Assembly (NCBI GenBank): GCA_030613025.1
Contig: JAUWMT010000003.1
Location: 14,752-78,751, forward strand
Direction: 5' to 3'
DNA: 64,000 nt
Source: Candidatus Cloacimonadota bacterium
GTDB taxonomy: Bacteria; Cloacimonadota; Cloacimonadia; JGIOTU-2
Shown here: in pieces, positions 17,614 through 53,650 of the stretch
How positions within the stretch are numbered: position 1 is the stretch's first letter
Layout of the letters: each line of letters begins with the position of its first letter
Notes under the pieces: model-generated
What the model saw: only the letters and a program-made list of their open reading frames with translations
Database searches by the model: none
Told to the model about the DNA's origin: nothing
Made by a program: the position numbers and the translations under genes

Positions 17614-18954
17614 CTATCTCATCAAAATAACTTGCTTCGTTGCGTAATACTGTCCATTTACCTGTACAGAATACAGGTAAATACCGTTGGATAATGTTTT
17701 GCCATGCTCATCTTTACCATTCCATTGCATAGAAACAGGAACATCAGCATTAACATGGAGTGAACTAAAAGATTTAACCAGCGCACCCTTTACATCATAA
17801 ATCGCAACATCGACCATTGCTGTTTGAGTAAGCATGAACTCGATCTTCGTTGTCTCATTAAAGGGATTTGGTGAAGCAATTAGATCATACACACGAGGAG
17901 GAGTAACGTTTGGATTTGGATCATTGGTTTCGGGAATGGTTATCATTGCAACTTTATCAAAGTGATGTATTGTACCACTGTAATCTACGCTCTCAAGCCA
18001 GTAATAATAAACATCATCAACCTGCGGATTAGCGATTACATCTTCATAAATATAGGACTGCATTTGTGTAGTTGTACCGTGACCTTCTATCATGCCGGAT
18101 ACTCTTGTTGCAGAAGTGAAATCCTCTGCCTGATTACGGTATACGAACCAGCCCATATTATCTGTCTCGGATTGAGTGGTCCAGTAGAGTAAAGGTTTTC
18201 CTGCAAGGTATTGAGCAGTGAAGGTTGAGAGCTCAACGGGGAGGGTGACACCACTATCGGGAATACCATCGCTGTTAGAATCAATAGTGATTGACCATAA
18301 GTTAGTAAGATGATCAGGCCCGCCATCTCCATCAGTATCAGCATTATCTGGTGCTGAGTCACAAGCTCCGTAATTATCGCCACCAGCAATAACACCAACA
18401 ATTTTCAGTGACGCCCCTGAAGGAACAGTCCCTGCCCCTAATCCATAAATACTATTCCATGGAATTGCAACCTCAGCAGATGTCGTTCCGCTAATTGTAC
18501 AGCTACCACTTATAGCATCATCTGAAGTATTATCAGTAATAGTCCAAACACCTGGAGTTCCGCTATCCCAACTTGCGATCATAAGATCAATAGCATCATC
18601 CTAATTGAAGATTATATTTCTAGGATATGCACCTGTATATCCATTATTACTATTAAAATCAGTTTCACCACCAACAATACTCATATCCAAATAAACAATC
18701 ATTGCATTGCCTGATGCAGTATATTCTATGCCCACATATAAATTATCAGCATCCCAAGTTAACCACAGATTATTCATTTCGCTTGATGCACCCCATGCAG
18801 AATCATCATTGGGATCATCTACAATTAATTCATCCGAATCCCAATCACCTGCTGCTATGTTAATAGAACCATCAATAGTAGGTGTGTTATATGTTACACC
18901 AAAAAGCAATGATGTACAAAACACAAACACTGTAATTAATATTATTTTTTTCAT
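17614..18954 (-). pseudogene. Secreted CTD protein with DOMON/CBM9-like domain; single in-frame TAG at 18601-18603
   Basis: ORFs 18601-18954 and 17614-18582 share a frame (..IIFN*DDAIDLMIASWD); signal peptide; TLPVELSTFTA motif; CTD. Confidence 0.8.
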
Positions 18955-19039
18955 CGTACCTCCTAAATATTATTTTAGATTTTTCATAATTTTTTAATTA
19001 CTATTTAAGAAATTTTTGTCAAATTTTATTCTAATTTTA

Positions 19040-22000
19040 TCATTTTCTCAATAAATATTCTTGTGTTCCAATTTTATAAAAATAAATTCCTGAACGAACT
19101 TCCTTTCCTTTTTCATCTTTGCAATCCCAAATAATTTCATGAATTTTTAACTTTGAATTTTTAATTTTTAATTTTTTCACAAGTTGACCTTTTACATTAT
19201 AAATACTAATTTGGGATAATTCGAGTGAATTCGTGGTTGCAAAAAAGTGTATTGTTGTTGAAGTTTTGAAGGGATTTGGATAGTTCCAGGTTTCTAATCC
19301 TACATTATTATTCTGGGGGTGAATTGAGACGATAGGAATTTGGTAGGTGAAGTATTCATCAAAACCGATGTTGCCATCTACGTTTCCTGAGGGAAGTTGC
19401 CCAACCAAAGTTCCACTATCACTGGTTTCATATTCACCAATTGCGATAAAGAAGCTGTCCACTTCTCCAAGCTCAGAATCAATCGAGAAATATCCTTCGA
19501 GTACAGTATTGAGTGCTGCTCCAGTAGTTCCTTCATTATCAAACCATGCATGGTAGCCGTTCGAACCTTCCTGGGCAAGAAATAGATCCCACTGGGCTAC
19601 CTGTCCTGCTTTTGCCCACGGTGCTGCGGTCATTTGTGTAAGTTCACTGGAAATGAGCATAAACAGATCAGTTGTACTTCCTGCAGGGGTGCATGCAACG
19701 TAGCACCAATCTTCATCAACTGCTGCCCAGAGCTCGATTTCTGAGGAAAAAGCAACAAGCTCTGCCTGAGCATCGACAACGCCGTTCATAATAAAAGGAA
19801 CACTTGCTCCTTGCACCTGCACATGCCAGTCCTGCCCATTGTTATTATCCCAGTTGCCCTGTCCGTCATGGAAACAGAAATCAACTACTGTAGTACCGCT
19901 TTCAATTGTGAAGGTAAACACCCAAACTGAATCCTGCGCATTGAAGGTCATTGCAAAATCATCCACATTCTGCCAGCAATTCATACCTTTATGAATTTGT
20001 AATTGAGTCACATCATACAAAGGTCCTTCCGCTCCATAGGTAATGTTGAGCTCATCTCCGACTTCCGACTCTTCCGGACTCCACTGTACATAGTCCTGCA
20101 CAGAGACACCGCCTGAACCAACATATACATGCTGGATCGGAGACTTCTTCACATTGCTATGGTTGTCTTCAGCTTGGACATAATAATCAATCAAACAGTC
20201 TGAATACCCTGCAATTTCTGCATAGTATTCATCAGCAATATAGTCCGGAAGTACAAAGAAATCAATTGCAGGATTGCCTGTTACATTACCTGTGGGAAAA
20301 TCTCTCACAGACATTATTATTGAATTCCACGAGCCCACTTCCGAACCGCCTGCATAGGTTTCATTATCATAAGAAGTTAGAGAATTTTCTCCGTCATTAT
20401 CAATACGGAATTTTAATTCAACTGATGAGAGTCCGGACACATCATACACAAAAGTCCATACATGGAAATCGCTTGAATTTTGATGAGTTTGATAGCCATA
20501 TATCGGACCAAAACCTTCTCCGCCGGGATTGTAAGGAAATCTTTGAGGAATGAAAATTGTGGGTGCAACATCGTCTTCACCCGGATTGGCATCAATTTCA
20601 TAATCTGCATACTCTACTGCGTTGTTGCATGCAATGGTCTGCTTCACTTCCATATCCAGCGAAGTGCCGTAATACATATATCCACTTGTAAGAGAAGGCA
20701 GGAAGAAATGCCATGCCAGTTCTGCATTATTTGCACTTGCATTCGGATACACGATCTTGCTAATATCAACTGAGCCAATTAGCTCTTCTGCTGTTTCCAC
20801 CCTGTTCTGAGCCGCGGTTATCACTGCCCAATTGCGCACATCCTCGGTCCAACCATAAGGATCGAACCGATAATTTCCATTATACATAGGCCATATCCAG
20901 TTTATGAACTGCGGATGCCCCCAATCATTGGCGGCGTTCACCCAGCTTCCGTCTTCCACATGCACGATGTCGTTTGAAGGAACGGGATTGTTATCAAGAA
21001 ATTGCTGAACTGTCGAGGGAATGTATCCCTGCGATGCTGCTGCGTTTGCAAAATTCGGCACTGAATTCATATAGTAATCGTATCCGCCACCCCATGCATT
21101 ATCGCCGTCATGTGCAAGGAGTACGATGCTCGGATGTGAAGGGTCATTATAGGGTGCAATATGAGAATCGATCTCGCCGGTTCCCATTGAAGAATAGCCG
21201 TTCATATAGCTGAGAAGATCGCACATAGGCACGACATTGATAGTATATACCTGTTCGGTTTCAGGATCGACATACTGAGCTTTGTGTGCCTGATAACAGA
21301 ATGGTGCAGCAAAAGTGCCACCTCTGCCATCGATCTGACCACTCCACCAATTGCTTCCGACAGGTCCGAGAATATCTGCCGGATTGGGTGGATCAATATT
21401 ACATCCCGAAGTTCCATAACTAAGCGGGTAATCCTGGCAAGTCCGTGCAAGATGGCTGTTCGCGATAACCGACCATTCGAGTCCTTCCTCCGCAAGCGTT
21501 TGAATAATTCTCTCAGAGAAAGAGCATTCTGCAGGCCAGAATCCTTTTGAATATACCGGGTCATTTCCGAAGAATTGTGAGTAAATATAGCGGTGAGCTT
21601 GAATTTCTTTATGCAGTGCGTTCTCATCGATGAGCGGTGCAAGTGCATGATGAAAGGTGAAGGCAGTAATATCCATTCGAGGATTCCCGCCTGATGTCTG
21701 CCATGAACGAGCAGTCTGGAAATTGCCCTGCCATCCGGAGTTGTATCCCCATTGGACGGCTTCTGCCAAACTTTGCACATTTTCAATAAGGCAGCCGGAA
21801 TAGTTCACTTGTGCTCCTGCGTCTGCATGGACGAGGAGGGTTTGCACTGCGTCTTTTGGGCGCCATTGATACGCGGCAACTCTGTCATCCTTGTTGAATA
21901 TATCCTCAAGATCATTCAAGGGATGCTGAAGCCCGTCGGAATACCAGTTGCCATTGTTCTGCTTTAGCCATTGGGACTCCCGGCAGGTTTGGTAACGGTA

Positions 22001-22132
22001 CGTATTCCATGTGCCTTTGTCGGGCCAGTAGATCGGTTGCTGAAGGTGCCATAGATAGGTAGTATGTACCGGAGCGGATACCCCGGTGTTTGATATAATG
22101 AGCAGCAGTACAAAGAGAATCGTTTTTTTCAT
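19040..22132 (-). CDS. Secreted GH57/GH119-like alpha-glucanase with CBM25-like module and CTD
   Basis: WHLQQP, FWPAE (nucleophile-like), AHDGDN; FCFHDGQGNWDNNNGQDW CBM25/53-like; NYPNPF CTD. Confidence 0.75.
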   Translation of the reverse strand: MKKTILFVLLLIISNTGVSAPVHTTYLWHLQQPIYWPDKGTWNTYRYQTCRESQWLKQNNGNWYSDGLQHPLNDLEDIFNKDDRVAAYQWRPKDAVQTLLVHADAGAQVNYSGCLIENVQSLAEAVQWGYNSGWQGNFQTARSWQTSGGNPRMDITAFTFHHALAPLIDENALHKEIQAHRYIYSQFFGNDPVYSKGFWPAECSFSERIIQTLAEEGLEWSVIANSHLARTCQDYPLSYGTSGCNIDPPNPADILGPVGSNWWSGQIDGRGGTFAAPFCYQAHKAQYVDPETEQVYTINVVPMCDLLSYMNGYSSMGTGEIDSHIAPYNDPSHPSIVLLAHDGDNAWGGGYDYYMNSVPNFANAAASQGYIPSTVQQFLDNNPVPSNDIVHVEDGSWVNAANDWGHPQFINWIWPMYNGNYRFDPYGWTEDVRNWAVITAAQNRVETAEELIGSVDISKIVYPNASANNAELAWHFFLPSLTSGYMYYGTSLDMEVKQTIACNNAVEYADYEIDANPGEDDVAPTIFIPQRFPYNPGGEGFGPIYGYQTHQNSSDFHVWTFVYDVSGLSSVELKFRIDNDGENSLTSYDNETYAGGSEVGSWNSIIMSVRDFPTGNVTGNPAIDFFVLPDYIADEYYAEIAGYSDCLIDYYVQAEDNHSNVKKSPIQHVYVGSGGVSVQDYVQWSPEESEVGDELNITYGAEGPLYDVTQLQIHKGMNCWQNVDDFAMTFNAQDSVWVFTFTIESGTTVVDFCFHDGQGNWDNNNGQDWHVQVQGASVPFIMNGVVDAQAELVAFSSEIELWAAVDEDWCYVACTPAGSTTDLFMLISSELTQMTAAPWAKAGQVAQWDLFLAQEGSNGYHAWFDNEGTTGAALNTVLEGYFSIDSELGEVDSFFIAIGEYETSDSGTLVGQLPSGNVDGNIGFDEYFTYQIPIVSIHPQNNNVGLETWNYPNPFKTSTTIHFFATTNSLELSQISIYNVKGQLVKKLKIKNSKLKIHEIIWDCKDEKGKEVRSGIYFYKIGTQEYLLRK

Positions 22133-22140
22133 TTTAAATC

Positions 22141-22245: not shown

Positions 22246-23625
22246 TCAGTCGATCATTAATTTTTTGGTTTCTTGATAATCTTCGGTCTTGAGCTGATAG
22301 AAATAAATACCGCGTCCAAAATTCTCAGTATTCCATTCAACTGTGTAATTATTCACCACACGATCATCATTGACCACTTCTGCCACACGCTGTCCAAGCA
22401 CATTATAAATATTCAACTGCACAGGACGAACTGTTCCTTCCATTCCGCCAAGACAGAAATTGAATGTGACAGACTGTCCCATTCTTGCAGGATTCGGAAA
22501 ACTTGGAAGCAAGTTTGAGTTTATAATATTCATCTCACCATTCTGATCAACATCGATAGGTGTAAACTCGATCGAGCCGTAAAGATCATTCGTTCCACCA
22601 AAGTTCACCACTTCAAGCCAGTAATAGTAGGTTGTATAATAAGGATCAGCACTGAGATCAGTAAATTCGTATGTATGAGGAGTGGTAGTGGTTCCATGTC
22701 CGGGGATAATGGAAGTATTTACTTTTTGAACAGTTGAGAAATCATCCTCTTCGGAACGGAAAATGTTATAGCCAATAACATCTGTCTCTGTAGCGGTCTG
22801 CCATGAAACAGTTACAAATTCATTCACATATACTGCAGTGAATGCAGAAAGTTCGACAGGAAGAGTGTAATATGATGAATGATATGGACCGCCACTCAAA
22901 GTTGAATAATCGGGATTATTACCAAGATCTCCTGAAGGAGGGGTACCTGGTGCACAATCCTGACAGAACCATCCAGTATTACTGACAACCATTCCAAAAG
23001 CAGCCAATGTTCCAGATGAAGTAACACCTAACTCAGCAAAAGGAATTGCAAACTCAACACCATGATCTCCGGTGTTATCATTATTTACAGCAAAGGCAAC
23101 TGAATTTTCACTAAATATACCAGCAGGAGATGGTCCAGTAGCTGACGTACCAACCTGATCACATGTGCCGATGTATGATGGAAACCCTACACCTGCATTA
23201 AATACTAATGCATCAAAATAAACATTTGTTGCTCCACCTCCAGTATTCCAGGCAAACATATAGTCTACTTCAAAATCTGCTTTATAATCATTATTACCAG
23301 TATCACCCATATAACTACCTGCACTGGCTGTTCCTCCAAGAGAAGTTCCTGCGGGCATTCCAGTTAATTGGTTGAATCCAAGCCATAAACCAAAAGCATT
23401 AGAACTACCTGTACAAAGATTGCCAACTAAACCAATGTACAATACATTAGCTACTACGTCAGGATAATAAACAATTTTATCAATGTTCATACCCCAAGTA
23501 CCTAATCCATTTCCCGTAGCTATTTGCACATATTCAGCATCGCTCATATCGCCATCGATTGTTGGTGCTCCATATGCAAATGAAGCAATGAATAATAACA
23601 CAACTAAAACACTAATTTTTTTCAT
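22246..23625 (-). CDS. Secreted CTD protein with DOMON/CBM9-like domain
   Basis: Signal peptide; PTIDG..LYIG..EFAIPF..LG; TLPVELSAFTA; FPNP..YNVLGQ..GIYFY CTD. Confidence 0.8.
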   Translation of the reverse strand: MKKISVLVVLLFIASFAYGAPTIDGDMSDAEYVQIATGNGLGTWGMNIDKIVYYPDVVANVLYIGLVGNLCTGSSNAFGLWLGFNQLTGMPAGTSLGGTASAGSYMGDTGNNDYKADFEVDYMFAWNTGGGATNVYFDALVFNAGVGFPSYIGTCDQVGTSATGPSPAGIFSENSVAFAVNNDNTGDHGVEFAIPFAELGVTSSGTLAAFGMVVSNTGWFCQDCAPGTPPSGDLGNNPDYSTLSGGPYHSSYYTLPVELSAFTAVYVNEFVTVSWQTATETDVIGYNIFRSEEDDFSTVQKVNTSIIPGHGTTTTPHTYEFTDLSADPYYTTYYYWLEVVNFGGTNDLYGSIEFTPIDVDQNGEMNIINSNLLPSFPNPARMGQSVTFNFCLGGMEGTVRPVQLNIYNVLGQRVAEVVNDDRVVNNYTVEWNTENFGRGIYFYQLKTEDYQETKKLMID

Positions 23626-31245: not shown

Positions 31246-31259
31246 AAGTTACCTCAAAA

Positions 31260-31685: not shown

Positions 31686-31698
31686 ATTTTGTCGATCC

Positions 31699-33642: not shown

Positions 33643-33661
33643 TATTACTCCTTATATCCTG

Positions 33662-35191: not shown

Positions 35192-35196
35192 TTATC

Positions 35197-37214: not shown

Positions 37215-37266
37215 AATGTGACTTCTATCGGTAGAAATAAGCTGCCCCGATGTATCGGGGTCAGCT

Positions 37267-37458
37267 TCATTGGATCGTTAGCGATGTTTTTAATAAACAT
37301 ATTTTCTTTATTAAAGGTCCTAATATACTATTATTAAAAATCCTTTCCATTTGAATTTTATTAGCTTTGTCGTCGGGGATACCTCTAAACTCTCGTTCAA
37401 GCTTTTTTTGAATATCCCATTTCATTTGTACACAATCAAATCGCTTATGTTTTTTCAT
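37267..37458 (-). CDS. Small putative antitoxin partner of the PIN protein
   Basis: 63 aa, ATGA overlap with the PIN gene; FDCVQMKWDIQ motif. Confidence 0.55.
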   Translation of the reverse strand: MKKHKRFDCVQMKWDIQKKLEREFRGIPDDKANKIQMERIFNNSILGPLIKKICLLKTSLTIQ

Positions 37459-37913: not shown

Positions 37914-37936
37914 AATAAAATACCATTAAAAACAAT

Positions 37937-40900: not shown

Positions 40901-41479
40901 AATATTTTCATCTGTATAACCATATTTTTCTAATAGAGTACAATATATACCAGAAACAGGATTCCATAGACGACCATCATAGAGTCCATCATGCTGACCG
41001 ATTATTACTGCATATAAATGATCATCAGGATCACGAGTTGGTATTATCGGGTTTGGATCTTGAGGTATATCCAAAACCTCTGGTCTGGGTGCATAAGAAA
41101 TCAATTCAAAATCATCTTCAATATTTTTCGGATAGATATTTTTATCGATCACCTGATATGCACCGGTCGCTATATCGACAAAAACATAACGACAGGGATG
41201 ATGCCACATGGCTGATGGGATATCATTTATAAAAAAGACCCAGTTATTATCATAAGTAGGAACTAACATTTGACTTTCGTCATTATACATTTCCAATACA
41301 TCTTGAATACTTATACTTGTGTTTTTTACTTACACATCTACATTTCCAATATCATTGGGTAATATCTGATTCAAAACCAAATCTTCTGCATCATTTTTTG
41401 TTATCTCTGCATGCAAAGACACAGAAGACACGAATACTAAAAGCACTAATAGTGCTATTTTGAATTTTGTTATACTCAT
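37937..41479 (-). pseudogene. Secreted legumain/C13-like (caspase-fold) peptidase with beta-helix, TPR-like region and CTD; in-frame TAA at 41330-41332
   Basis: ATG 41479 with AAGGAG RBS and signal peptide MSITKFKIALL..LHA, in frame with ORF 37937-41296; FVATHG and LPCYSGGF His/Cys dyad; NYPNP CTD. Confidence 0.7.
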
Positions 41480-41511
41480 CTGATTCTCCTTATTCCGATT
41501 GTTTATCGGGT

Positions 41512-47566: not shown

Positions 47567-48403
47567 TTATCCTTTTACACTTCCCAGCGTTAAACCCGAA
47601 ACGAGCCATTTACTGAGGACTAAAAATACAATTATAACAGGGACGCTGATAATCAAAGCGCCTGCTGCATACATACCCCATTGTGTGGTCATATTGCCTT
47701 GCAGACTTTTCAAACCAAGTGGAATAGTGAACATATCTTCATACCACAAAACTTGTGCTGCAACCACATATTCGTTCCACGCAGCCATGAAAGAGAAAAG
47801 CGCTGTGATAACAAGAGCGGGAGATGCGAGGGGAAGAATGATTTTCCAGAAAGCATAGAATTTTCCAGCGCCGTCAACTTTTGCAGATTCTTCCAAGCTC
47901 GGAGGTATCGTATCGTAATATCCTTTCATGAGCCAGATGCAGAAAGGAAGAGCCGATGCACTGTACATGACGATCAATCCGAGAAAACTGTTAACCAGTC
48001 CAAGCTTGGAGATCATAATATATAAAGGAAGCAAAAGCATCGTTGCCGGAAACATCTGCGTTACGAGAAGTGCAAGCAAGCCCGACCTACGTCCGGGAAA
48101 TTTATATCGCGAAAAGGCATAACCTGCTGTTGATGACAGTGCAACACCGATGATCGTAACTGCTAATGTAACTAGCAAACTATTTTTTATCCATGTGAGG
48201 AATGGCTTTTCTGTAAAGAGCTGAACGTAATTAGCCCATGTTGCGTCTTCCGGAATAATTCGCAGTGAAGTGTTGAGAAGATTGTCGCCGGGACGTAATG
48301 ATATCGTGAGAACACGGAGGATCGGGAAAATAGAGATCGCGACAAATAAAAGCAGGATCGAATAGATAATTACATATTGATACCAATGTCTTGTTTTATT
48401 CAT
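47567..48403 (-). CDS. malG: Maltose/maltodextrin ABC permease (MalG-like)
   Basis: AGYAFSRYKFPG, QMFP, EESAKVDGA EAA loop, SGLTLGSVKG. Confidence 0.85.
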   Translation of the reverse strand: MNKTRHWYQYVIIYSILLLFVAISIFPILRVLTISLRPGDNLLNTSLRIIPEDATWANYVQLFTEKPFLTWIKNSLLVTLAVTIIGVALSSTAGYAFSRYKFPGRRSGLLALLVTQMFPATMLLLPLYIMISKLGLVNSFLGLIVMYSASALPFCIWLMKGYYDTIPPSLEESAKVDGAGKFYAFWKIILPLASPALVITALFSFMAAWNEYVVAAQVLWYEDMFTIPLGLKSLQGNMTTQWGMYAAGALIISVPVIIVFLVLSKWLVSGLTLGSVKG

Positions 48404-48412: not shown

Positions 48413-50701
48413 TTATGCCTTATCTGCAACTTGCGTTTTTTTCAAAAACGTCACGCTAAAAACTACCAGAATGAGGAAAATGATCATCGAAAATGCAGCA
48501 GCATATCCGTAACGATACAGATTGAATGCCGCTCGATATACATAAGAAACAAGAATGTGAGATTTATCAGCCGGCTGACCACCATTCGTGACCAACCATA
48601 TCACTGTCAGTTTATTGAATGTCCATACAATTCCCAGTGTGATCGCAGGGATCATCACAGGTTTGAGAAGCGGAACAGTTACACTCCAGAATTTTTTCCA
48701 GGCAGACGCACCATCGATCTCTGCTGCTTCATAAAGCTCTTTTGGTATGGACTGTAAACCTCCCATTGCAATGATCATCATGAAAGGCACACCGAGCCAA
48801 ATATTTGTCATGATACTGGCAATGAAAGCAGTTGTCGCCCCGGAAAGCCAGTGCACCGCAGGAATGCCCAGTTTATGCAATATCAGATTGATCGCACCGG
48901 TATCATACATAAACATACCGCGCCAGGTCAAAGCAGTGATATATTCCGGCACAGCCCAAGGCAGAATGAGTAGTACCCGAATGATCGATTTGCCGGGTAA
49001 ATGCCGATTGAGCAACACTGCAAGAAATACACCCAGAGTTACATGGAAGAATACGTTCACAACTGTCCAGACCACCGTCTTAAAGAAAACCGAATAAAAT
49101 ATTTTTTCTGCAAAAACTTTAGCATACTGCCCGAAACCGATAATGGTCCACGAATTCACATTCGTCATATTCATGTTGGAGAATGAGAGCACGATATTAT
49201 AAAAGAAGGGATAAATGACAACTCCGAAAAGAATTACCGATGCGGGAACTGCCATGATAACTGCGAATCGTGCATTTTGAGTTTCAAATGAATTCGGCTT
49301 CCTCATCAATGCAAGGATAAATTTGAACACAAGCAGATATGTAAAATACAAACCAAGTGCAATTCCAAGGATCGTAAAAATGGTTGAAGCCAAAGCAGTT
49401 TTTTTCTCGACTCCTTCTTCTGAGCCCTCATACATAGCAGCGATCTTCTGCTCACAGAGTTCCTGTTGGTATTCTGCTGCTTCGGCCGGAGTCATGTCTC
49501 CTGAGATGACATTTTGAAGCGCAGGGCGCATCGCATCCCATGCAGCTCTCATTTCAGGAATAATCGGCATGAGCTGTCCAACTTCGATCTGCTTGGCGGA
49601 CATCATCATAACCGGATCGTTTGCAATGGCAGGTCTTTCCTGAAGTGATTTCAAGCTGGGAATGGATTTGAATTTTTCTACAAACTGCTCCTGCACTTCC
49701 TCAGAAGTGAGATATTCAAGCACTCGCTTTGTAGCTTCCAAAACCTCGCCCTTTGCAGAGCTGTTTACAGAATATCCGGTGGCAGATACCATTGGAGAGC
49801 ACCACATCTGGGTTTCTTCCACATAAGGAATGCGAGCCAAACCGAAATCAACATGAGGAGAAGCAATATATTTATTCCATGACCAGTCCCCATTTATTAT
49901 CATTGCAGCATTGCCCTGATTGAACATATTATCCGCAATATCATAATCACACTCCGGTGGCATGATCCGAGATTTATTCCGCATATCAAGGATGAGCTGG
50001 AATGCTTTCTCTGCAGCATGAGTATCCAACTCGGGATTGTTATTCTCATCAAAAACTTTTCCTCCGTACCCACCAAAGAATGGAATATACCAGAAAGGTT
50101 CCGTATAATTCCACACAAGCCCCCATTGATCGATTTTACCGTCAGCGTTTTTATCAACTGTCAATTTCTGTCCGAATTCTATAAGCTCATTTATCGTTTG
50201 AGGAGGTTCGGTCAACCCTGCTTCTTCAAACAATCTCTTATTATACACGAGAGCAAGATGATTTCCCATTCGGTCTGCGATCTGGTATATATGCCCTTTA
50301 TATCGCACCAAACCCTGATCAACGAATTTGTCAAAAAATTCTTCCGGATAGAGGTCTTCAATTGGTTTGATGATGCTCTCGTCACTGTCTTTTAATTTCA
50401 TCACCTCAAAAGGTCCGATCTGATCCATTGGACCATATACCAGTTCTGGTCCTCCACCGGCGAATGCAGCTGCAGCCTGGTATCCTGTGCGAACTTCCTC
50501 AGTTCCCTTTGCCAGAACTACTACTTCGATATCCGGATTGTTCTGCTCAAAATCCTCTATGATTTTCTTTAGAATGGGTCTCTTCTCCGGCTCCATTTGA
50601 TGCCAGAGATGAACGATCGTTTTACCTTCTTCGGTTCTTTTGCATCCTATGAGTGCAAAAGCCACAATTAAGGTGAGAAAAATCAGCAATATTTTATTCA
50701 T
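48413..50701 (-). CDS. Fused maltodextrin-binding lipoprotein (MalE-like) and MalF-like permease
   Basis: Lipobox LIGC; LVYNKRL, AAMIINGDW, MPIIPEM..W SBP motifs; then TM helices with LYEAAEIDGA EAA loop. Confidence 0.85.
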   Translation of the reverse strand: MNKILLIFLTLIVAFALIGCKRTEEGKTIVHLWHQMEPEKRPILKKIIEDFEQNNPDIEVVVLAKGTEEVRTGYQAAAAFAGGGPELVYGPMDQIGPFEVMKLKDSDESIIKPIEDLYPEEFFDKFVDQGLVRYKGHIYQIADRMGNHLALVYNKRLFEEAGLTEPPQTINELIEFGQKLTVDKNADGKIDQWGLVWNYTEPFWYIPFFGGYGGKVFDENNNPELDTHAAEKAFQLILDMRNKSRIMPPECDYDIADNMFNQGNAAMIINGDWSWNKYIASPHVDFGLARIPYVEETQMWCSPMVSATGYSVNSSAKGEVLEATKRVLEYLTSEEVQEQFVEKFKSIPSLKSLQERPAIANDPVMMMSAKQIEVGQLMPIIPEMRAAWDAMRPALQNVISGDMTPAEAAEYQQELCEQKIAAMYEGSEEGVEKKTALASTIFTILGIALGLYFTYLLVFKFILALMRKPNSFETQNARFAVIMAVPASVILFGVVIYPFFYNIVLSFSNMNMTNVNSWTIIGFGQYAKVFAEKIFYSVFFKTVVWTVVNVFFHVTLGVFLAVLLNRHLPGKSIIRVLLILPWAVPEYITALTWRGMFMYDTGAINLILHKLGIPAVHWLSGATTAFIASIMTNIWLGVPFMMIIAMGGLQSIPKELYEAAEIDGASAWKKFWSVTVPLLKPVMIPAITLGIVWTFNKLTVIWLVTNGGQPADKSHILVSYVYRAAFNLYRYGYAAAFSMIIFLILVVFSVTFLKKTQVADKA

Positions 50702-50802: not shown

Positions 50803-51942
50803 CTACTTTTCTTTTAGCACTTCCTCGTACATTTCTTTGGTTTGCTTTGCAATGATCTTCCAATCAAAAAATTCCTCAACTCTTTTCCGTCCGTTCTCTC
50901 CGAATTTCTTCGCTAATGCTTTATCATATAGCAGCTTATTGATCTTTTCTGAAAGCTGCTTTGGCTTAGCCGGCTCAACGAAAAATCCGGTCTCGCCTTC
51001 CACGACAACTTCCTTTATTCCGCCAACTTTACTTGCAACGACAGGAGTCTTACACGCCATAGCTTCAAGGTTTATGATACCAAATGGCTCATAGATTGAT
51101 GGACATGCAAAGACCGAGGCGTTGCTGTACAATTCGATATACTGCTCTTCTTTTAGCAGCTTGTTTATCCACAAGGTATTGGTCGTTTCCTTCATCTTTT
51201 TTGTAATCAGCTGCTCGATTTCAGGAGTGTCCGGTGCACTTGTGCAGAATACAACTTTTGCTTTGATATCTTTCGCTGCCTCGATGAGATAGACCATCCC
51301 CTTCTGCTGGGTAGTTCTTCCCACAAAAAGTACAAATTCCTCATCGATGCCATATTCTTTCAGCGTGTAGTCAGTCAGCGTTTCTTTCCATTTACGTAAA
51401 TCGATTCCATTATAAATAACCTTTATCTTTTTCTCATCGATATCAAAATATTTTAGGATATCGGCTTTCATCATTTTGGAAACTGCGACAACTCTGTCTG
51501 CATTTTCGATGCCGAGTTTCTCCACCCAACTGCTAAGTTTATAACCTGATCCAAGCTGCTCTTCCTTCCATGGACGAAGTGGCTCAAGACTGTGTGAGGT
51601 AAGCACGAACTTGTTATCATATAGCATTTTAGCAAGAAAGCCGGCAAAGGCAGCATACCAAGTGTGAGTATGTACAATGTCGGAATCCATTACATCATTA
51701 ACGATCGAAAGGTCTATTCCAAGTGTATCGAGGGCTTTGCTTATGCGTGGATCACCTTCCAGCTTTCCAAGAGTTGAATATCCTTTGATGCGATATCCTT
51801 CTTCTTTGATATCTTGCTCGCCAAAGCTTCTCACCTCGATATCTATCATTTTGCGAAGTTCCTGAACGAGATATCGAACGTGCACTCCAGCGCCGCCATA
51901 TACATTCGGCGGATATTCTTTAGTAATAAATGTAACTTTCAT
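50803..51942 (-). CDS. glgM: GT4 glycosyltransferase of the GlgM (actinobacterial GlgA, maltose-1-phosphate synthase) type
   Basis: TKEYPPNVYGGAGVHV, HTHTWY, HSLEPLRPWKEEQLG, PSIYEPFGIINLEAMAC. Confidence 0.85.
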   Translation of the reverse strand: MKVTFITKEYPPNVYGGAGVHVRYLVQELRKMIDIEVRSFGEQDIKEEGYRIKGYSTLGKLEGDPRISKALDTLGIDLSIVNDVMDSDIVHTHTWYAAFAGFLAKMLYDNKFVLTSHSLEPLRPWKEEQLGSGYKLSSWVEKLGIENADRVVAVSKMMKADILKYFDIDEKKIKVIYNGIDLRKWKETLTDYTLKEYGIDEEFVLFVGRTTQQKGMVYLIEAAKDIKAKVVFCTSAPDTPEIEQLITKKMKETTNTLWINKLLKEEQYIELYSNASVFACPSIYEPFGIINLEAMACKTPVVASKVGGIKEVVVEGETGFFVEPAKPKQLSEKINKLLYDKALAKKFGENGRKRVEEFFDWKIIAKQTKEMYEEVLKEK

Positions 51943-51952
51943 AAGAACCTTT

Positions 51953-53650
51953 CTAATATTTTTTATGTAGCATGAAAATCCATGCAGGATCTTCATTTTG
52001 TAATGTTATTGATAATTCTTTCCCTTTATGTGTAAAGGTTTTTTCTGATAACAATTCCTCGATAGTATATTCTTCATCAGCATGAATACCGAATTTTTCT
52101 AAGGGCAAATGCAGCACACTCGAATGTTCGTTATAAGCATCCATATTGACAGCAACGAGGACTGTGTTCTCTTTATCATAGGAAGTTTTTCCATAAAAGA
52201 GAATGTTATCATCTGAGGATTCGTAGAAAGATAGATTGCGATAATAATGGAGCGCAGTGTTTTCTCTTCGTATTTGGTTGAGTTTCTTAATATAAAATTT
52301 GATATTGCCTGGTCTATCCCAGTCCCAGACTTTGTAATCATATTTTTCTGAATCGAGGTATTCTTCAGTGCCTGGAATCGCCTTATTTTCGCAGAGTTCA
52401 TAACCATTATACATTCCATACACAGAAGAGAGCGTACTTGCCAGCACAATTCTCTGCATGAACGCAGGGCGTCCTGCTTCCTGTAAGAGTGGCATGAGAA
52501 TATCAGGCGTATTGGTAAAGAAATTTCCCCTGAAGTAATACTGCATATCCGTCATGGTGAGCTCGGTAAGATATTCTGTAAAATCAAACTTGTTATAACG
52601 CCATGTGAAGTAGGTGTATGATTGCGTAAAGCCAATTTTTGCCAGAAGCTTCATCATTTTGGGCTCGGTGAACGCTTCTGCAAGCAGTATCGCGCTGGAA
52701 TCTTTTTCATGAATTTCCCGACTTATCCACTCCCAGAATTTAACCGGTTTTGTATGAGGATTATCCACGCGAAACGTGCGAATTCCCTGATCGATCCAGA
52801 AAAGGAAAATATCTCGAAGTTCGTTCCACAATTCCAGATAATTCTCGCATTCGAAATTCAGCGGATGTACATCTTCATATTTCTTTGGCGGATTTTCTGC
52901 ATACTTAATTGTGCCGTCGGGATTATGAAAAAACCACTCCGGATACTGTTTTATCCAGGGATGGTCAGGCGAGCAAGTAAAGATAATATCGAGGACTAAT
53001 TCAATGCCGAATTTGGCAGCTTCTTCTATGAAACGATGAAAATCCTCCATCGTACCGAAATCAGGATTGACCGCTTTATGTCCACCATGCTCATTGCCGA
53101 TAGAATAGAGACTACCGGGATCATCGGGACCTGCTTGGAGCGAATTATTCGGACCTTTCTTATTTGTTTTGCCAACAGGATAAGTGGGTGCAAGATATAT
53201 CGTGTCAAAGCCAAGATCGTGCACATATGGCAAGCGTTTTATCATGTCATCGAAAGTGGCACTTTTGCCTTTAACTTTTCCCTGCGATCTGGGCCACATC
53301 TCATACCATGCTGCGAAGCGTGCTCGTGGTCTATCAAAATAGACTTCATAAATTTGCTCATGAATAATGCCCTCGCCATTCATTTCAACAACAAAAGTGT
53401 ATTCGTATAAACCCGTTTCATTTGTTTCTATTGCTGCTTCATATCGGTTTGTCTCGACTAAATTCATAATGATTTGCTGCCAGTGCTTTTCTGCTTTTTT
53501 CCTGAAATTCAGAAAGACTTTCGAGGTCTCATTCAGTCCGGTAATAGTGACATATATTTTGAATGGCAAGTCGGTTTCCCACTTACAATAATACTGCCCT
53601 TCGTCAACAAGCGGGGCTATATTGGAAAAGGTGATTTCATTATTTTCCAT
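51953..53650 (-). CDS. glgE: Alpha-1,4-glucan:maltose-1-phosphate maltosyltransferase
   Basis: WYEMWPRS, YAENPPKKYED, FRVDNPHTKP, LAEAFT, NTPDIL, EEYLDSEKY. Confidence 0.92.
   Translation of the reverse strand: MENNEITFSNIAPLVDEGQYYCKWETDLPFKIYVTITGLNETSKVFLNFRKKAEKHWQQIIMNLVETNRYEAAIETNETGLYEYTFVVEMNGEGIIHEQIYEVYFDRPRARFAAWYEMWPRSQGKVKGKSATFDDMIKRLPYVHDLGFDTIYLAPTYPVGKTNKKGPNNSLQAGPDDPGSLYSIGNEHGGHKAVNPDFGTMEDFHRFIEEAAKFGIELVLDIIFTCSPDHPWIKQYPEWFFHNPDGTIKYAENPPKKYEDVHPLNFECENYLELWNELRDIFLFWIDQGIRTFRVDNPHTKPVKFWEWISREIHEKDSSAILLAEAFTEPKMMKLLAKIGFTQSYTYFTWRYNKFDFTEYLTELTMTDMQYYFRGNFFTNTPDILMPLLQEAGRPAFMQRIVLASTLSSVYGMYNGYELCENKAIPGTEEYLDSEKYDYKVWDWDRPGNIKFYIKKLNQIRRENTALHYYRNLSFYESSDDNILFYGKTSYDKENTVLVAVNMDAYNEHSSVLHLPLEKFGIHADEEYTIEELLSEKTFTHKGKELSITLQNEDPAWIFMLHKKY

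What the first reader, a model, noticed from the sequence alone, without database searches (positions are those of the whole stretch)
17614..53650. Candidate new alpha-glucan utilisation system without SusC/SusD
Seen: about 36 kb of co-oriented genes covering an entire starch/glycogen route. It includes CTD-bearing GH57 and GH57/GH119-like enzymes, several non-catalytic CTD proteins, CBM48 lipoproteins, a three-CBM48 GH13 lipoprotein, two unknown beta-barrels, a PorV-like barrel, a MalE-MalF/MalG ABC and GlgM/GlgE, with malQ adjacent. I recognised no TonB-dependent receptor, SusD or LamB. Established: Bacteroidota use SusCD PULs and enterobacteria use LamB plus MalEFGK. Inference: this is a third architecture, combining T9SS-like surface display with a dedicated barrel importer and an ABC transporter, in an uncultured FCB lineage.
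Basis: partly seen in the sequence, partly recalled or inferred. Interest (0 to 1): 0.85.

Follow-up and report, generated by a model that had tools for sequence, protein, structure and literature searches.

The report
Starch-uptake gene cluster with novel outer-membrane barrels
An uncultured Cloacimonadota bacterium carries a starch/glycogen-feeding gene cluster whose outer-membrane part is three uncharacterised barrel proteins, kept together in several related phyla, in place of the known sugar gates.

Summary
Positions 17614-53650 carry 21 co-oriented minus-strand genes: GH57-type enzymes with T9SS C-terminal domains (CTD), a neopullulanase-type GH13 lipoprotein with three CBM48, a MalE-MalF fusion plus MalG, GlgE and a GlgM-type GT4, several non-catalytic CTD proteins and three predicted outer-membrane barrels. 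The genome (98% complete) has no SusD or LamB. Its only two TonB-dependent receptors lie elsewhere, without CAZyme neighbours.

The main result is a conserved module: CTD protein (378 aa), PorV-like barrel (293 aa), 24-strand barrel (509 aa), CBM48-fused 22-strand barrel (647 aa), CBM48 lipoprotein (141 aa). It usually sits beside the GH13 and the ABC genes. It recurs in 80 loci from Cloacimonadota, Eiseniibacteriota, Krumholzibacteriota, Latescibacterota, Fibrobacterota and Fidelibacterota MAGs. Neither large barrel matches a Pfam family or a solved structure by sequence, apart from the CBM48.

Not all 36 kb is one unit. The PIN, C13-peptidase and FG-GAP genes are a variable insert, and the GlgE/GlgM and GH57 genes are not conserved partners.

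That the barrels import glucan is inferred, not shown. They could instead anchor surface proteins. Verdict: a real, conserved, undescribed variant of a glycan-utilisation locus. Interest 0.68.

The parts
51953..53650 (-). GlgE-type alpha-1,4-glucan:maltose-1-phosphate maltosyltransferase (565 aa, short N-terminus)
   Evidence: PDB sequence search E 5.6e-139 to Streptomyces GlgE; Pfam GLGE_C, Alpha-amylase, GlgE_dom_N_S. Adjacent to the module only in close relatives (GlgM seen in L025 only).
50803..51996 (-). GT4 of the glgA_Coryne/GlgM type (397 aa)
   Evidence: TIGR02149 519.1 bits against a cut-off of 302.4. The name GlgM is recalled, not given by a tool.
48413..50701 (-). MalE-MalF fusion: lipobox, solute-binding domain and ABC permease (762 aa)
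   Evidence: SBP_bac_1 at 43-338 and BPD_transp_1 at 554-753. A single HSP spans the fusion in Cloacimonadota loci.
47567..48403 (-). MalG-like ABC permease (278 aa)
   Evidence: BPD_transp_1. MalEF or MalG lies within 10 kb of the barrel in 32 of 34 loci with 8 kb or more on both sides. The only MalK-type ATPase is elsewhere, on C61.
44867..47536 (-). Non-catalytic CTD protein: about 345-aa N-terminal domain with CBM48/X25-like stretches, PKD repeats, CTD (889 aa)
   Evidence: Pfam PKD_4 and Por_Secre_tail; 58% identity to the 464-aa paralogue and BLASTP similarity to the GH13's CBM48 region.
43026..44420 (-). Non-catalytic CTD protein, paralogue of the N-terminus of the 889-aa protein (464 aa)
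   Evidence: Relatives lie beside the module in many loci.
37455..42972 (-). Variable insert, probably unrelated to glucan use: FG-GAP CTD protein (41512-42972), C13-peptidase/beta-helix CTD protein (37937-41296), PIN-domain protein (37455-37913)
   Evidence: Pfam. GC 0.326-0.339 in the bins 38001-42000. Absent between the p464 and p378 homologues in L025; only 28-30% identical counterparts in L026.
36078..37214 (-). CTD protein with an unassigned N-terminal 'domain X' (378 aa); proposed surface glucan binder docked on the PorV-like barrel
   Evidence: FlgD_ig/CHU_C-type C-terminus. The profile matches PorU's CTD at E 0.0012. Domain X has no Pfam or PDB sequence match. Found upstream of the PorV-like gene in 58 of 68 loci. 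Its stop overlaps the next gene's start by 1 nt.
35197..36078 (-). PorV/PorQ-like small outer-membrane barrel (293 aa)
   Evidence: NF033709 E 1.4e-16, 61 bits, below the cut-off of 90; weak PorP_SprF and TraF_2 hits. Directly upstream of the 509-aa barrel in 73 of 73 loci.
33662..35191 (-). 24-strand outer-membrane barrel of no known family (509 aa); proposed glucan channel
   Evidence: AF2 pLDDT 89.4. Best fold matches are usher barrels, Z 16.8 and 15.7, and MtrB, Z 15.6. 0 PDB sequence hits. Polar face more conserved than apolar face, 3.06 against 2.41 bits, p 2e-9. 186 clusters in 1.84 billion representatives. Single copy in the genome.
31699..33642 (-). CBM48 fused to a 22-strand outer-membrane barrel (647 aa)
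   Evidence: AMPK1_CBM/CBM_48 at 22-110, present in 49 of 49 aligned members. AF2 pLDDT 86.5. CBM48 Z 14.0 at rmsd 1.7; the barrel matches only generic barrels. Downstream of the 509-aa barrel in 66 of 67 loci.
31260..31685 (-). CBM48 lipoprotein with a conserved tether after the lipidated Cys (141 aa)
   Evidence: AMPK1_CBM. 36-39% identical to the CBM48s of the barrel and the GH13. Alignment of 38 sequences shows the conserved Cys and tether. Downstream of the 647-aa barrel in 59 of 63 loci.
30283..31245 (-). Lipoprotein: CarboxypepD_reg plus domain X (320 aa)
   Evidence: Pfam. hhalign to the p378 family: probability 96.8%, E 2.6e-10.
27340..30258 (-). GH13 lipoprotein with three N-terminal CBM48; catalytic part of the neopullulanase/cyclomaltodextrinase type (972 aa)
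   Evidence: Pfam. E 1.3e-116 to TVAII/neopullulanase. A long GH13 match occurs in 36 of 44 loci with enough flank.
23727..27314 (-). Large CTD protein: weak GH57-like N-terminus, CBM48-like stretch, two X25 domains, CTD (1195 aa)
   Evidence: X25_BaPul_like E 1.3e-27; GH57 16 bits, below cut-off. Atlas lead to GH57 clusters at 0.87. Full-length relatives in L025, L029, L037 and L047.
22246..23625 (-). Non-catalytic CTD protein with domain X (459 aa); probable end of the core transcription unit
   Evidence: Por_Secre_tail. 30% identity to the broken paralogue. A terminator-like hairpin of 17 pairs at 22233-22197 on the minus strand follows it.
19040..22132 (-). GH57 enzyme with CBM53/25-like stretch and CTD (1030 aa)
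   Evidence: Glyco_hydro_57 47.7 bits, partial; Por_Secre_tail. No PDB sequence hit at E<=0.001. Catalytic residues not checked.
17614..18954 (-). Domain-X CTD protein cut by one in-frame stop (117 aa + 322 aa)
   Evidence: Read-through translation. The halves align with successive parts of p378.
14588..16078 (+). MalQ (GH77 4-alpha-glucanotransferase), separated from the cluster by IS110 transposase fragments
   Evidence: Glyco_hydro_77 E 6.3e-173. MalQ also lies near the module in L030, L037 and L047.

Best explanation
This is an alpha-glucan (starch, glycogen, pullulan) utilisation locus of an uncultured Cloacimonadota bacterium. Its outer-membrane stage is built from a conserved, uncharacterised module instead of SusC/SusD or LamB.

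Shown here:
- the gene content;
- three predicted barrels, two of them in no known family;
- CBM48 fused to one barrel;
- tight, co-oriented gene packing;
- conservation of the module next to GH13 and MalEFG genes in several FCB phyla;
- absence of SusD and LamB from the genome;
- presence of SprA, PorU and PorV-family genes.

Inferred mechanism:
1. GH57-type enzymes and CBM-rich non-catalytic proteins with CTDs are exported by a T9SS-like system. They bind and cut glucan at the cell surface.
2. The 378-aa CTD protein stays docked on the adjacent PorV-like barrel, as type B CTD proteins do on PorP/SprF barrels.
3. Maltodextrin chains cross the outer membrane without TonB through the 24-strand 509-aa barrel, whose polar face is the conserved one. 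The 22-strand barrel, with its N-terminal (probably periplasmic) CBM48, and the small CBM48 lipoprotein capture the chain.
4. The lipid-anchored neopullulanase-type GH13 trims the chain to maltose or short dextrins.
5. MalE-MalF/MalG, with a MalK encoded elsewhere, import these.
6. MalQ and GlgE/GlgM feed them into metabolism and glycogen storage.

Odds: about 0.9 that it is a conserved alpha-glucan utilisation locus with a new outer-membrane module; about 0.5 that the two large barrels are the import route.
For: Gene content.

Barrels:
- AF2 pLDDT 89.4 and 86.5.
- Strand and turn pattern: 24 and 22 strands, with turns of 2-5 residues (one of 12, and one of 8, in the 647-aa protein) on the side of the N-terminus and the long loops on the other side.
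- No Pfam or PDB sequence relatives.
- Fold matches are generic.

Synteny in the best 80 of 137 species genomes with a relative, counted over loci with enough flank:
- PorV-like gene 73 of 73;
- 647-aa barrel 66 of 67;
- CBM48 lipoprotein 59 of 63;
- p378-like protein 58 of 68;
- GH13 36 of 44;
- MalEF/G 32 of 34.
Where p378 is missing, a 1765-aa protein with domain X, Glucodextran_C and a weak CTD takes its place.

CBM48 is present in 49 of 49 members of the 647-aa family.

The 509-aa barrel's polar face is more conserved than its apolar face: 3.06 against 2.41 bits, Mann-Whitney p 2e-9.

Genome:
- both barrels are single-copy, and the A2 profile hits only ORFs of this locus;
- no SusD and no LamB;
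- two TBDTs with no CAZyme neighbours;
- SprA 569.7 bits, PorU 532.3 bits, six PorV-family genes over the cut-off;
- 150 ORFs with a CTD-like end;
- 7 of 13 PorV-like places have a same-strand CTD ORF within 400 nt.

Precedent for CTD protein plus cognate barrel: PMC9143113 and PMC12618676 (abstracts read).

The B509 tree clusters by phylum label: 9 changes against a shuffled mean of 25.8.
Against: - No tool result shows transport, localisation or expression.
- The 647-aa barrel's polar face is not more conserved than its apolar face: 2.33 against 2.43 bits, p 0.2.
- I had no model coordinates, so pore size and plugging loops could not be examined. A 22-24 strand barrel without a plug domain is unusual for a passive sugar channel.
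- The best structural neighbours (ushers, MtrB, LptD) pass or house proteins and LPS, not sugars.
- The PorV-like protein is below its family cut-off.
- T9SS motor genes were not found: GldM no hit with a silent control; GldK only below the cut-off.
- The module is patchy within the phylum: 27 of 232 genomes, and 0 of 98 in one family.
- The two TBDTs elsewhere cannot be excluded as maltodextrin gates.
- The side of the membrane on which the lipoproteins sit is unknown.
- GH57 catalytic residues were not checked, and the 1195-aa protein is GH57-like only by sub-threshold evidence.
Confidence: 0.55

Rival explanations
1. The three barrels are not a sugar gate. They are a T9SS-linked display platform: cognate shuttle or anchor barrels that hold glucan-binding and glucan-cutting CTD proteins, and the barrel-fused CBM48, on the cell surface so the cell can stick to starch or glycogen granules. 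Oligosaccharides enter by another route, such as general porins or one of the two TBDTs.
For: - The PorV-like barrel always follows a CTD protein or its larger substitute.
- PorV-like plus CTD gene pairs recur in this genome, at 7 of 13 places.
- Type B CTD proteins are known to anchor on PorP/SprF-like barrels (PMC9143113 and PMC12618676, abstracts).
- The best fold neighbours of the 509-aa barrel are protein-conducting or protein-housing barrels: ushers and MtrB.
- The 647-aa barrel shows no extra conservation of its polar face.
- If the linker threaded the barrel as in autotransporters, the CBM48 would be displayed outside (inference).
Against: - Only the 293-aa protein resembles T9SS barrels.
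- The strand and turn pattern places the CBM48 on the short-turn side, normally the periplasm.
- The 509-aa barrel's polar face is strongly conserved.
- The module is single-copy and tied to glucan genes, although the genome has about 150 CTD ORFs.
- No alternative gate for maltodextrins was found: no LamB, no SusD, and the TBDTs have no CAZyme neighbours.
Confidence: 0.27
2. The module exports an alpha-glucan (capsule or matrix) made by GlgE/GlgM, and the barrels are the outer-membrane exit, as AlgE, PgaA or Wza-type proteins are for other polymers.
For: - GlgE and a GlgM-type GT4 lie at the head of the co-oriented block.
- AlgE and a polysaccharide secretin appear among the generic barrel matches, Z 14.1 and 11.6.
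Against: - The ABC system carries a solute-binding domain and so is an importer.
- The conserved partners are hydrolases (neopullulanase-type GH13, GH57) and CBM proteins.
- GlgM was seen next to the module only in the closest relative, L025. No GlgE or GlgM hit was listed in the rest of the output that I could read, which was cut.
- No polymer synthase, copolymerase or periplasmic export protein lies in the locus.
Confidence: 0.05
3. The large barrels are very divergent TonB-dependent transporters or porins that have drifted beyond recognition, so the system is an ordinary TBDT- or porin-based maltodextrin locus.
For: - The 22-strand count equals that of TBDT barrels, and TBDT barrels align over 350-382 residues at Z 12-14.
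- 3 of 49 members give weak Porin_4 hits, best E 2.3e-5.
Against: - No Plug or TonB_dep_Rec hit in any of 49 and 44 members at E<=1.
- The N-terminus is a CBM48, not a plug.
- Genuine TBDTs of the same genome are readily recognised.
- Usher, porin, VDAC and TBDT barrels all score alike.
Confidence: 0.08

Closest known systems
Bacteroides starch utilisation system (SusCDEFG with SusA/SusB) and SusCD-type PULs
   Same: - One co-oriented locus joins surface glucan binders, a surface or periplasmic GH13, an outer-membrane barrel with a following lipoprotein gene, and downstream sugar handling.
- The GH13 is of the neopullulanase type, like SusA: SusA E 3e-25, TVAII E 1.3e-116.
   Different: - No SusC-like TBDT and no SusD.
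- Three barrels without a plug.
- CBM48 is fused to a barrel.
- Surface proteins carry T9SS CTDs rather than only lipid anchors.
- The inner-membrane step is an ABC importer with a fused binding protein rather than an MFS (the MFS is recalled for Sus).
Enterobacterial maltose regulon (LamB, MalEFGK2, MalQ, MalS/MalZ)
   Same: MalE/MalF/MalG-type ABC importer and MalQ are present. A TonB-independent passive outer-membrane channel is the proposed logic.
   Different: - No LamB family member in the genome.
- The barrels have 24 and 22 strands rather than 18 (the 18 is recalled).
- MalE is fused to MalF, and MalK is unlinked.
- There are secreted CTD enzymes.
T9SS type B CTD cargo with cognate PorP/SprF-like shuttle or anchor barrels (P. 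gingivalis PG1035-PorP; F. johnsoniae SprB-SprF)
   Same: A CTD protein gene sits directly beside a small PorV/PorP-like barrel gene, and the pairing recurs across the genome. Abstracts of PMC9143113 and PMC12618676 read.
   Different: - The barrel here scores best against the PorV/PorQ family, below its cut-off.
- The CTD is FlgD_ig-like with weak hits to both type A and type B models.
- The pair is embedded in a glucan locus with two further barrels.
- The lineage is outside Bacteroidota.
T9SS-dependent, SusCD-independent cellulose utilisation of Cytophaga hutchinsonii and Fibrobacter succinogenes
   Same: An FCB bacterium uses T9SS-exported, cell-associated glycanases and an as yet undefined outer-membrane route for oligosaccharides. 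Basis: abstract of PMC11611037 seen in a listing, passages of PMC6851124, otherwise recalled.
   Different: - The substrate is alpha-glucan.
- A specific, conserved candidate outer-membrane module can be named here.
- No homology between the components of the two systems was tested.
Chaperone-usher translocation barrels (PapC, FimD)
   Same: These are the best structural matches of the 509-aa barrel: Z 16.8 (rmsd 6.4, 368 aligned) and Z 15.7 (rmsd 4.4, 377 aligned). The strand count of 24 is the same.
   Different: - 7-10% identity and no Usher Pfam hit.
- No plug domain and no N- or C-terminal periplasmic domains.
- No chaperone or pilin genes nearby.
- MtrB, TBDT and porin barrels score almost as well.

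Membership tests
SusC/SusD-type PUL | A SusD-family lipoprotein gene next to a SusC-like TonB-dependent transporter gene | tested here: not met
   PF07980 finds nothing in the 98.45%-complete genome, and the control rang in B. thetaiotaomicron. No TonB_dep_Rec or Plug hit on any ORF of the cluster or on the flanking ORFs scanned. The two TBDTs lie on other contigs.
LamB/maltoporin | Membership of Pfam LamB (PF02264) | tested here: not met
   No match in the genome; the control rang in E. coli. No LamB hit on the barrels.
TonB-dependent transporter (for the 647-aa and 509-aa barrels) | N-terminal plug domain (PF07715) and TonB_dep_Rec barrel (PF00593) | tested here: not met
   No such hit in the queries at E<=0.01, nor in 49 and 44 family members at E<=1. 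The N-terminus of the 647-aa protein is a CBM48. The same models recognise the genome's two real TBDTs.
TonB-dependent transporter (for the 647-aa barrel) | 22-strand barrel fold | tested here: inconclusive
   22 strands counted from the DSSP string. TBDT barrels align at Z 12-14, but 16-strand porins, ushers and VDAC score the same.
PorV/PorQ family (for the 293-aa barrel) | NCBIfam NF033709 at or above its curated cut-off of 90 bits | tested here: not met
   61 bits, E 1.4e-16, matched in two stretches. This is significant similarity but below the cut-off, so I call it PorV-like and not a member.
T9SS cargo (CTD proteins) | C-terminal Por_Secre_tail/CHU_C-type sorting domain after a signal peptide | tested here: met
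   Por_Secre_tail at or above 27 bits in the 1030-, 459-, 1119-, 464-, 889- and 322-aa ORFs. It is just below 27 bits (26.9) in the 486-aa ORF and weaker (22.4 and 16 bits) in the 1195- and 378-aa ORFs, which have FlgD_ig hits above the cut-off. N-terminal signal-like sequences are seen.
Type IX secretion system in the host genome | SprA translocon, PorU sortase, PorV | tested here: met
   SprA 569.7 bits summed in one 2104-aa frame. PorU 532.3 bits against 420. Six PorV_fam matches over the cut-off.
Type IX secretion system in the host genome | GldK/L/M/N (PorK/L/M/N) motor and ring | tested here: inconclusive
   GldM: no match, but the model rang in none of the control genomes. GldK: best 94.5 bits against a cut-off of 350. 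GldL and GldN were not searched.
GlgE (GH13_3 maltosyltransferase) | Full-length similarity to solved GlgE and the GLGE_C domain | tested here: met
   E 5.6e-139 over residues 104-548 to 5vsj/4u2y; GLGE_C 59.6 bits. The N-terminal domain is shortened (565 aa against 663-723 aa).
CUT1-type maltodextrin ABC importer | Solute-binding protein, two permeases and a MalK-type ATPase | tested here: met
   SBP_bac_1 plus BPD_transp_1 as a fusion, and a second BPD_transp_1. One OB_MalK-bearing 378-aa ORF on C61. Substrate specificity was not tested.
GH57 | Pfam Glyco_hydro_57 over its cut-off, with the catalytic Glu/Asp pair | tested here: inconclusive
   1030-aa protein: 47.7 bits, over the cut-off, but only profile positions 99-173 of 291, and no PDB sequence hit. 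1195-aa protein: 16 bits, below the cut-off; Atlas lead 0.87. Catalytic residues were not examined.
GH13 neopullulanase/cyclomaltodextrinase group | Close similarity of the catalytic and C-terminal domains to solved members | tested here: met
   E 1.3e-116 to TVAII and E 1.1e-106 to cyclomaltodextrinase over residues 521-971. The typical N-domain is replaced by three CBM48.
Chaperone-usher pathway usher (for the 509-aa barrel) | Usher Pfam family, in-barrel plug domain, periplasmic N/C domains, adjacent chaperone | tested here: not met
   Only the barrel fold matches, Z 16.8. No Usher hit in 44 members at E<=1. The mature protein starts directly with strand 1. No chaperone or pilin genes in the locus.

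The most novel reading that the evidence does not exclude
The module is a TonB-independent outer-membrane polysaccharide translocon, a third way beside SusCD and porins for diderm bacteria to take up glycans.
- The 24-strand barrel is the channel for long maltodextrin chains.
- The 22-strand barrel's periplasmic CBM48, the CBM48 lipoprotein and the lipid-anchored neopullulanase act as a binding-and-cleavage ratchet that pulls the chain inward.
- A PorV-like barrel holds a T9SS-delivered surface binder at the mouth.
On this reading the module is old and mostly vertically inherited in the non-Bacteroidota FCB phyla.
Probability: 0.35. Interest if true: 0.85.

Novelty: new variant of a known kind. 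Interest (0 to 1): 0.68.

Why it matters
Glycan uptake across the outer membrane is understood for two designs. One is SusCD-type TonB-dependent pairs in Bacteroidota. The other is specific porins or TBDTs in Proteobacteria.

The candidate phyla around Bacteroidota are abundant in sediments, digesters and the ocean. They include Cloacimonadota, Eiseniibacteriota, Krumholzibacteriota, Latescibacterota, Fidelibacterota and Fibrobacterota. They are credited with polymer degradation from CAZyme counts alone, and how the products enter the cell is unknown.

This locus names a concrete, conserved and compact candidate for that step: three barrels, a CBM48 lipoprotein and a CTD protein. It gives biochemists five small genes to express, image and test.

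If the barrels are a TonB-independent translocon, it is a new transporter family. If they are anchors, it extends the T9SS 'cognate barrel' principle to nutrient capture outside Bacteroidota.

It also gives annotators a marker set for alpha-glucan use in these MAGs, where the proteins are now called hypothetical or 'glycogen-binding domain-containing'.

Tried and rejected
- Complex prediction of the 647-aa barrel (residues 20-647, alignment A2) with the CBM48 lipoprotein (residues 19-141, alignment A4): 'no answer', score 0.00 in two runs, controls not folded. This is neither support nor evidence against. The pairs p378/PorV-like and lipoprotein/509-aa barrel could not be tried, because the cap is one job.
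- Expression: no RNA holder was listed for 30283-37300. The only full holder is a cold-seep metagenome run that may be the source of this DNA.
- Domain X (in p378, the 320-aa lipoprotein, p459 and the broken gene):
  - no Pfam hit in 35 members;
  - the profile finds only CTD-type PDB hits;
  - hhalign to the Glucodextran_C segment of L088 gives probability 0.1%;
  - Atlas leads to Glucodextran_C and CBM9 clusters score only 0.82.
  I leave it unassigned. 'CBM9-like' is a recollection from its motif pattern only.
- Homology between the two large barrels: hhalign probability 17% over 65 C-terminal columns. Not accepted.
- Fused forms of the 509-aa barrel: among the best 150 representatives only two are longer, at 682 and 698 aa. 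Neither has a CBM48; one has a weak CsgG-like N-terminus.
- Sigma-70 promoter scan: 63 sites against 56.5 +/- 8.4 in shuffles, so no signal. Terminator-like sites: 18 against 13.8 +/- 3.5. Only the 17-pair hairpin after 22246 was used.
- Paralogous modules for other glycans in this genome: none found.
Strand counts come from the DSSP strings. For the 509-aa protein I merged 272-279 with 281-285 and left out the short hairpin 346-353.
- Literature: searches found no paper describing this module.
  - PMC12590816 only counts CAZymes (passages).
  - The 2026 transporter review PMC13543919 has none of the terms Cloacimonadota, Fibrobacter, Marinimicrobia, CBM48 or type IX.
Gene tables there could mention these genes.

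Full report
WHAT IS THERE

The window is G000:C89:14752-78751 of a 2.83-Mb, 98-contig genome, 98.45% complete. Its close relatives are labelled Candidatus Cloacimonadota MAGs.

Between 17614 and 53650 every large ORF lies on the minus strand. In transcription order, by Pfam/NCBIfam, the genes are:
- GlgE (51953-53650; E 5.6e-139 to solved GlgE).
- A GT4 of the glgA_Coryne type (50803-51996; TIGR02149, 519 bits).
- A lipobox-bearing MalE-MalF fusion (48413-50701).
- MalG (47567-48403).
- Two paralogous non-catalytic CTD proteins with CBM48/X25-like stretches (44867-47536 and 43026-44420; 58% identical N-termini).
- An FG-GAP CTD protein, a C13-peptidase/beta-helix CTD protein and a PIN protein (37455-42972).

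After a 240-nt gap comes a tightly packed run, with gaps of -1 to 101 nt:
- a 378-aa CTD protein;
- a 293-aa PorV/PorQ-like barrel;
- a 509-aa protein of no family;
- a 647-aa protein with an N-terminal CBM48;
- a 141-aa CBM48 lipoprotein;
- a 320-aa lipoprotein;
- a 972-aa GH13 lipoprotein with three CBM48;
- a 1195-aa CTD protein with two X25 domains and a sub-threshold GH57 signal;
- a 459-aa CTD protein.

A 17-pair terminator-like hairpin follows (22233-22197). Next are a 1030-aa GH57 CTD protein and a further CTD gene that one in-frame stop cuts into 117-aa and 322-aa pieces. IS110 transposase fragments and then malQ on the other strand close the region.

THE BARRELS

With alignments of 44 and 49 homologues, AlphaFold2 gives confident models: mean pLDDT 89.4 (pTM 0.79) for the 509-aa protein and 86.5 (pTM 0.74) for the 647-aa protein.

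From the DSSP strings I count 24 strands for the 509-aa protein and 22 for the barrel part (133-647) of the 647-aa protein. In both, the connections on the side of the N-terminus are short, mostly 2-5 residues. The long, partly helical and partly very conserved connections lie on the other side. These are 26, 38 and 24 residues in the 509-aa protein and 27, 42 and 56 in the 647-aa protein. That is the usual outer-membrane topology. It would put the CBM48 (residues 21-108, joined by a low-confidence linker at 118-129) in the periplasm. This is an inference, since I had no coordinates.

Both proteins end in Phe.

Fold searches return only generic barrel matches:
- 509-aa protein: usher barrels PapC Z 16.8 (rmsd 6.4, 368 aligned) and FimD Z 15.7, MtrB Z 15.6, a SusC-like barrel Z 14.8. 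Foldseek TM is at most 0.50.
- 647-aa protein: the CBM48 matches amylase and branching-enzyme CBM48s at Z 12.7-14.0 (rmsd 1.7-1.8). The barrel matches porins, ushers and TBDT barrels alike at Z 12-14.

By sequence:
- A profile of the 509-aa family finds no PDB chain at E<=10.
- The 647-aa family matches the PDB only through its CBM48.
- Among 44 and 49 members scanned one by one at E<=1 there is no TonB_dep_Rec, Plug, LamB or Usher hit. The only hits are 5 of 44 weak DUF5095 and 3 of 49 weak Porin_4.
- The two barrels are not detectably related to each other.
- The 293-aa protein resembles the PorV/PorQ family (E 1.4e-16) but stays under the curated cut-off, 61 against 90 bits.

CONSERVATION

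The 509-aa family is small: 186 clusters at E<=0.001 among 1.84 billion 50%-identity representatives.

A scan of one genome per species found 137 genomes with a relative. The best 80 loci carry these labels:
- Cloacimonadota: 22 by record title; 21 of the 77 loci in the tree by the taxonomy labels.
- Eisenbacteria/Eiseniibacteriota: 24 by title, 23 in the tree.
- Krumholzibacteriota: 4.
- Fidelibacterota/Neomarinimicrobiota: 2.
- Fibrobacteraceae: 2.
- Latescibacteria: 1.
- 'Candidatus Stygibacter': 1.
- Unnamed bacteria: 22.
- Archaeal MAG labels: 2, on contigs of 4.4 and 2.8 kb, which I take for mis-binning.

tblastn of the window's proteins against these loci, counted only where the flank was long enough, gives:
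- PorV-like gene directly upstream on the same strand: 73 of 73.
- 647-aa barrel downstream: 66 of 67.
- CBM48 lipoprotein after it: 59 of 63.
- p378-like CTD protein upstream: 58 of 68.
- A long GH13 match: 36 of 44.
- MalEF or MalG within 10 kb: 32 of 34.

Where p378 is missing (L083, L087, L088, L090, L092, L096, L101-L103), a much larger gene occupies its place. In L088 it encodes 1765 aa with an N-terminal domain X, CarboxypepD_reg, Ig-like domains, Glucodextran_C (E 8.8e-29) and a weak CHU_C-type end.

All 49 aligned members of the 647-aa family keep the CBM48.

The closest relative with long flanks (L025, 90% identity) has the order GlgM, MalEF, MalG, p889, p464, p378, PorV-like, 509, 647, 141 and so on to GH13 and the 1195-aa protein, without the FG-GAP, C13 and PIN genes. 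These three are therefore a variable insert, which agrees with their GC of 0.33-0.34 in the 38-42 kb bins.

GlgM appears beside the module only in L025. MalQ appears in three loci. Full-length relatives of the 1195-aa protein appear in four loci (part of that output was cut from view).

A quick maximum-likelihood tree of the 509-aa barrel (77 loci plus the window) groups the sequences largely by phylum label: 9 label changes, the least possible being 7, against a shuffled mean of 25.8. The two Fidelibacterota rows are nested inside Cloacimonadota.

Within the phylum the barrel is patchy: 27 of 232 genomes, 22 of 151 high-quality ones, 12 of 66 genera, and 0 of 98 in one family.

THE GENOME AROUND IT

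- No SusD and no LamB. The controls rang where expected.
- Two TonB-dependent transporters on other contigs. Their neighbours are an ExbB, a lipoate ligase and an AIR-synthase-like gene in one case. In the other they are an ABC ATPase, a CTD protein, a Mur ligase and an aminotransferase. There is no CAZyme among the ten ORFs scanned.
- The 509-aa and 647-aa barrels are single-copy. The profile of the 647-aa family hits only ORFs of this locus.
- One MalK-type ATPase is encoded on C61.
- SprA (2104-aa frame), PorU and six PorV-family genes score over their cut-offs.
- GldM gave no hit, but its model rang in no control genome. GldK-like hits are far below the cut-off.
- A home-made CTD profile finds 150 ORFs with a CTD-like C-terminus. 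At 7 of 13 PorV-like places a same-strand CTD ORF lies within 400 nt.
- A review passage lists Cloacimonadota among phyla where T9SS 'may also be present' (PMC11285876, passage).

OTHER FEATURES BEARING ON MECHANISM

- In the strands of the 509-aa barrel the polar (lumen-type) face is clearly more conserved than the apolar face: 3.06 against 2.41 bits, p 2e-9. It is rich in invariant charged and aromatic residues. The 647-aa barrel shows no such difference (2.33 against 2.43 bits). Its conserved parts are the long loops and the C-terminal helical stretch.
- The CBM48 lipoprotein keeps, across phyla, not only the CBM48 core but also a basic, proline-rich tether right after the lipidated Cys. 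That suggests a docking partner.
- p378, the 320-aa lipoprotein, p459 and the broken gene share an unassigned 'domain X' of about 200 aa.
- The GH13's catalytic part is closest to neopullulanase, TVAII and cyclomaltodextrinase (E 1e-116 to 1e-100). That type acts on dextrins and pullulan.

HOW IT MOST LIKELY WORKS

Shown: a conserved operon-like module that links three outer-membrane barrels, CBM48 domains, a CTD protein, a dextrin-cutting GH13 and a binding-protein-dependent importer, in genomes without the known glucan gates.

Inferred:
1. CTD-bearing GH57-type enzymes and CBM-rich proteins are exported by the T9SS-like system and work at the surface.
2. p378 stays docked on its PorV-like barrel. 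Precedent is type B CTD proteins on PorP/SprF-like barrels (abstracts of PMC9143113 and PMC12618676).
3. Dextrin chains pass the 509-aa barrel without TonB.
4. The CBM48 of the 647-aa barrel and the CBM48 lipoprotein hold the chain.
5. The lipid-anchored GH13 shortens it.
6. MalE-MalF/MalG with the unlinked MalK import the products.
7. MalQ and GlgE/GlgM process them.

I put about 0.9 on 'conserved alpha-glucan utilisation locus with an undescribed outer-membrane module' and about 0.5 on 'the two large barrels are the import route'.

The main rival (0.27) is that the barrels are display or anchor devices for surface glucan binders and that sugars enter elsewhere. The structural neighbours (ushers, MtrB, LptD) conduct or house proteins and LPS, and nothing here measures flux. 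Export of an alpha-glucan (0.05) and 'drifted TBDT or porin' (0.08) fit the data poorly.

COMPARISON AND NOVELTY

In logic the locus resembles the Bacteroides Sus system and the enterobacterial maltose regulon. It fails the defining tests of both, having no SusC/SusD pair and no LamB.

The CTD-protein/PorV-like pair resembles the cognate cargo/shuttle pairs of Bacteroidota T9SS. The 24-strand barrel resembles usher barrels in fold only.

Seven literature searches and two targeted readings found no description of this module. Database names for its members are 'hypothetical protein' or 'glycogen-binding domain-containing protein'.

I rate it a new variant of a known kind: a polysaccharide-utilisation locus with a new outer-membrane stage. 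The outer-membrane module may prove to be a new transporter family.

Interest is 0.68. The conservation is strong, and the question of how non-Bacteroidota FCB bacteria take up glycans is open and now testable. The function is still inferred.

Noticed in passing
window 16201-17163 (minus strand): An IS110-family transposase is split into two ORFs: DEDD_Tnp_IS110 at 16660-17163 and Transposase_20 at 16201-16551. It lies between malQ and the cluster, next to the CTD gene that carries the in-frame stop.
   Followed up: no
window 17614-18954 (minus strand): A domain-X CTD gene is interrupted by a single in-frame stop: a 117-aa signal-peptide part and a 322-aa part in the same frame. It is either a pseudogene or an assembly error. 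Intact relatives exist in other loci, for example as the N-terminus of the L088 protein.
   Followed up: partly
window 37214-37913 (minus strand): A PIN-domain ORF (37455-37913) is followed by a small ORF in the 240-nt gap before the core operon (seen in the sequence). It looks like a toxin-antitoxin pair riding in the low-GC variable insert.
   Followed up: no
window 48413-50701; loci L025-L049 against L055-L100: In Cloacimonadota and Fidelibacterota loci the maltose-type binding protein is fused to the first permease, seen as one HSP over residues about 20-761. In Eiseniibacteriota loci the two parts match as separate adjacent HSPs.
   Followed up: no
L034 (4.4 kb) and L091 (2.8 kb): Two short contigs binned as Methanosarcinales and Thermoplasmata archaea carry the bacterial PorV-like/509/647 module. 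In the tree they sit next to Cloacimonadota and Latescibacteria sequences. This is probably mis-binning.
   Followed up: partly
L036, L037, L042, L047: The Fidelibacterota (Neomarinimicrobiota) copies of the 509-aa barrel are nested within the Cloacimonadota clade, SH-aLRT 100 for the joint group. This may reflect lateral transfer of the whole module between the phyla.
   Followed up: no
L050-L053: In the Krumholzibacteriota-type loci the ABC genes and the GH13 lie divergently upstream of the module. In L050 an amylo-alpha-1,6-glucosidase (GDE_C, E 2.4e-60) sits between them.
   Followed up: no
G000:C40:71975-78033: A second PorU-like 1683-aa CTD ORF (232 bits, below the PorU cut-off) lies directly upstream of a PorV-like barrel. 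This is the same arrangement as p378 and the 293-aa barrel.
   Followed up: no
window 6673-13493 (plus strand): Mfd (TRCF) is followed by three PPIase/SurA-like genes, the last with a SurA N-terminal domain. These are periplasmic chaperone genes just upstream of the region. No link to the barrels was tested.
   Followed up: no
window 57738-62341: A branched-chain amino-acid ABC transporter (two ATPases and a permease) and an AbiEi-type antitoxin gene lie downstream of the cluster. They appear unrelated to it.
   Followed up: no
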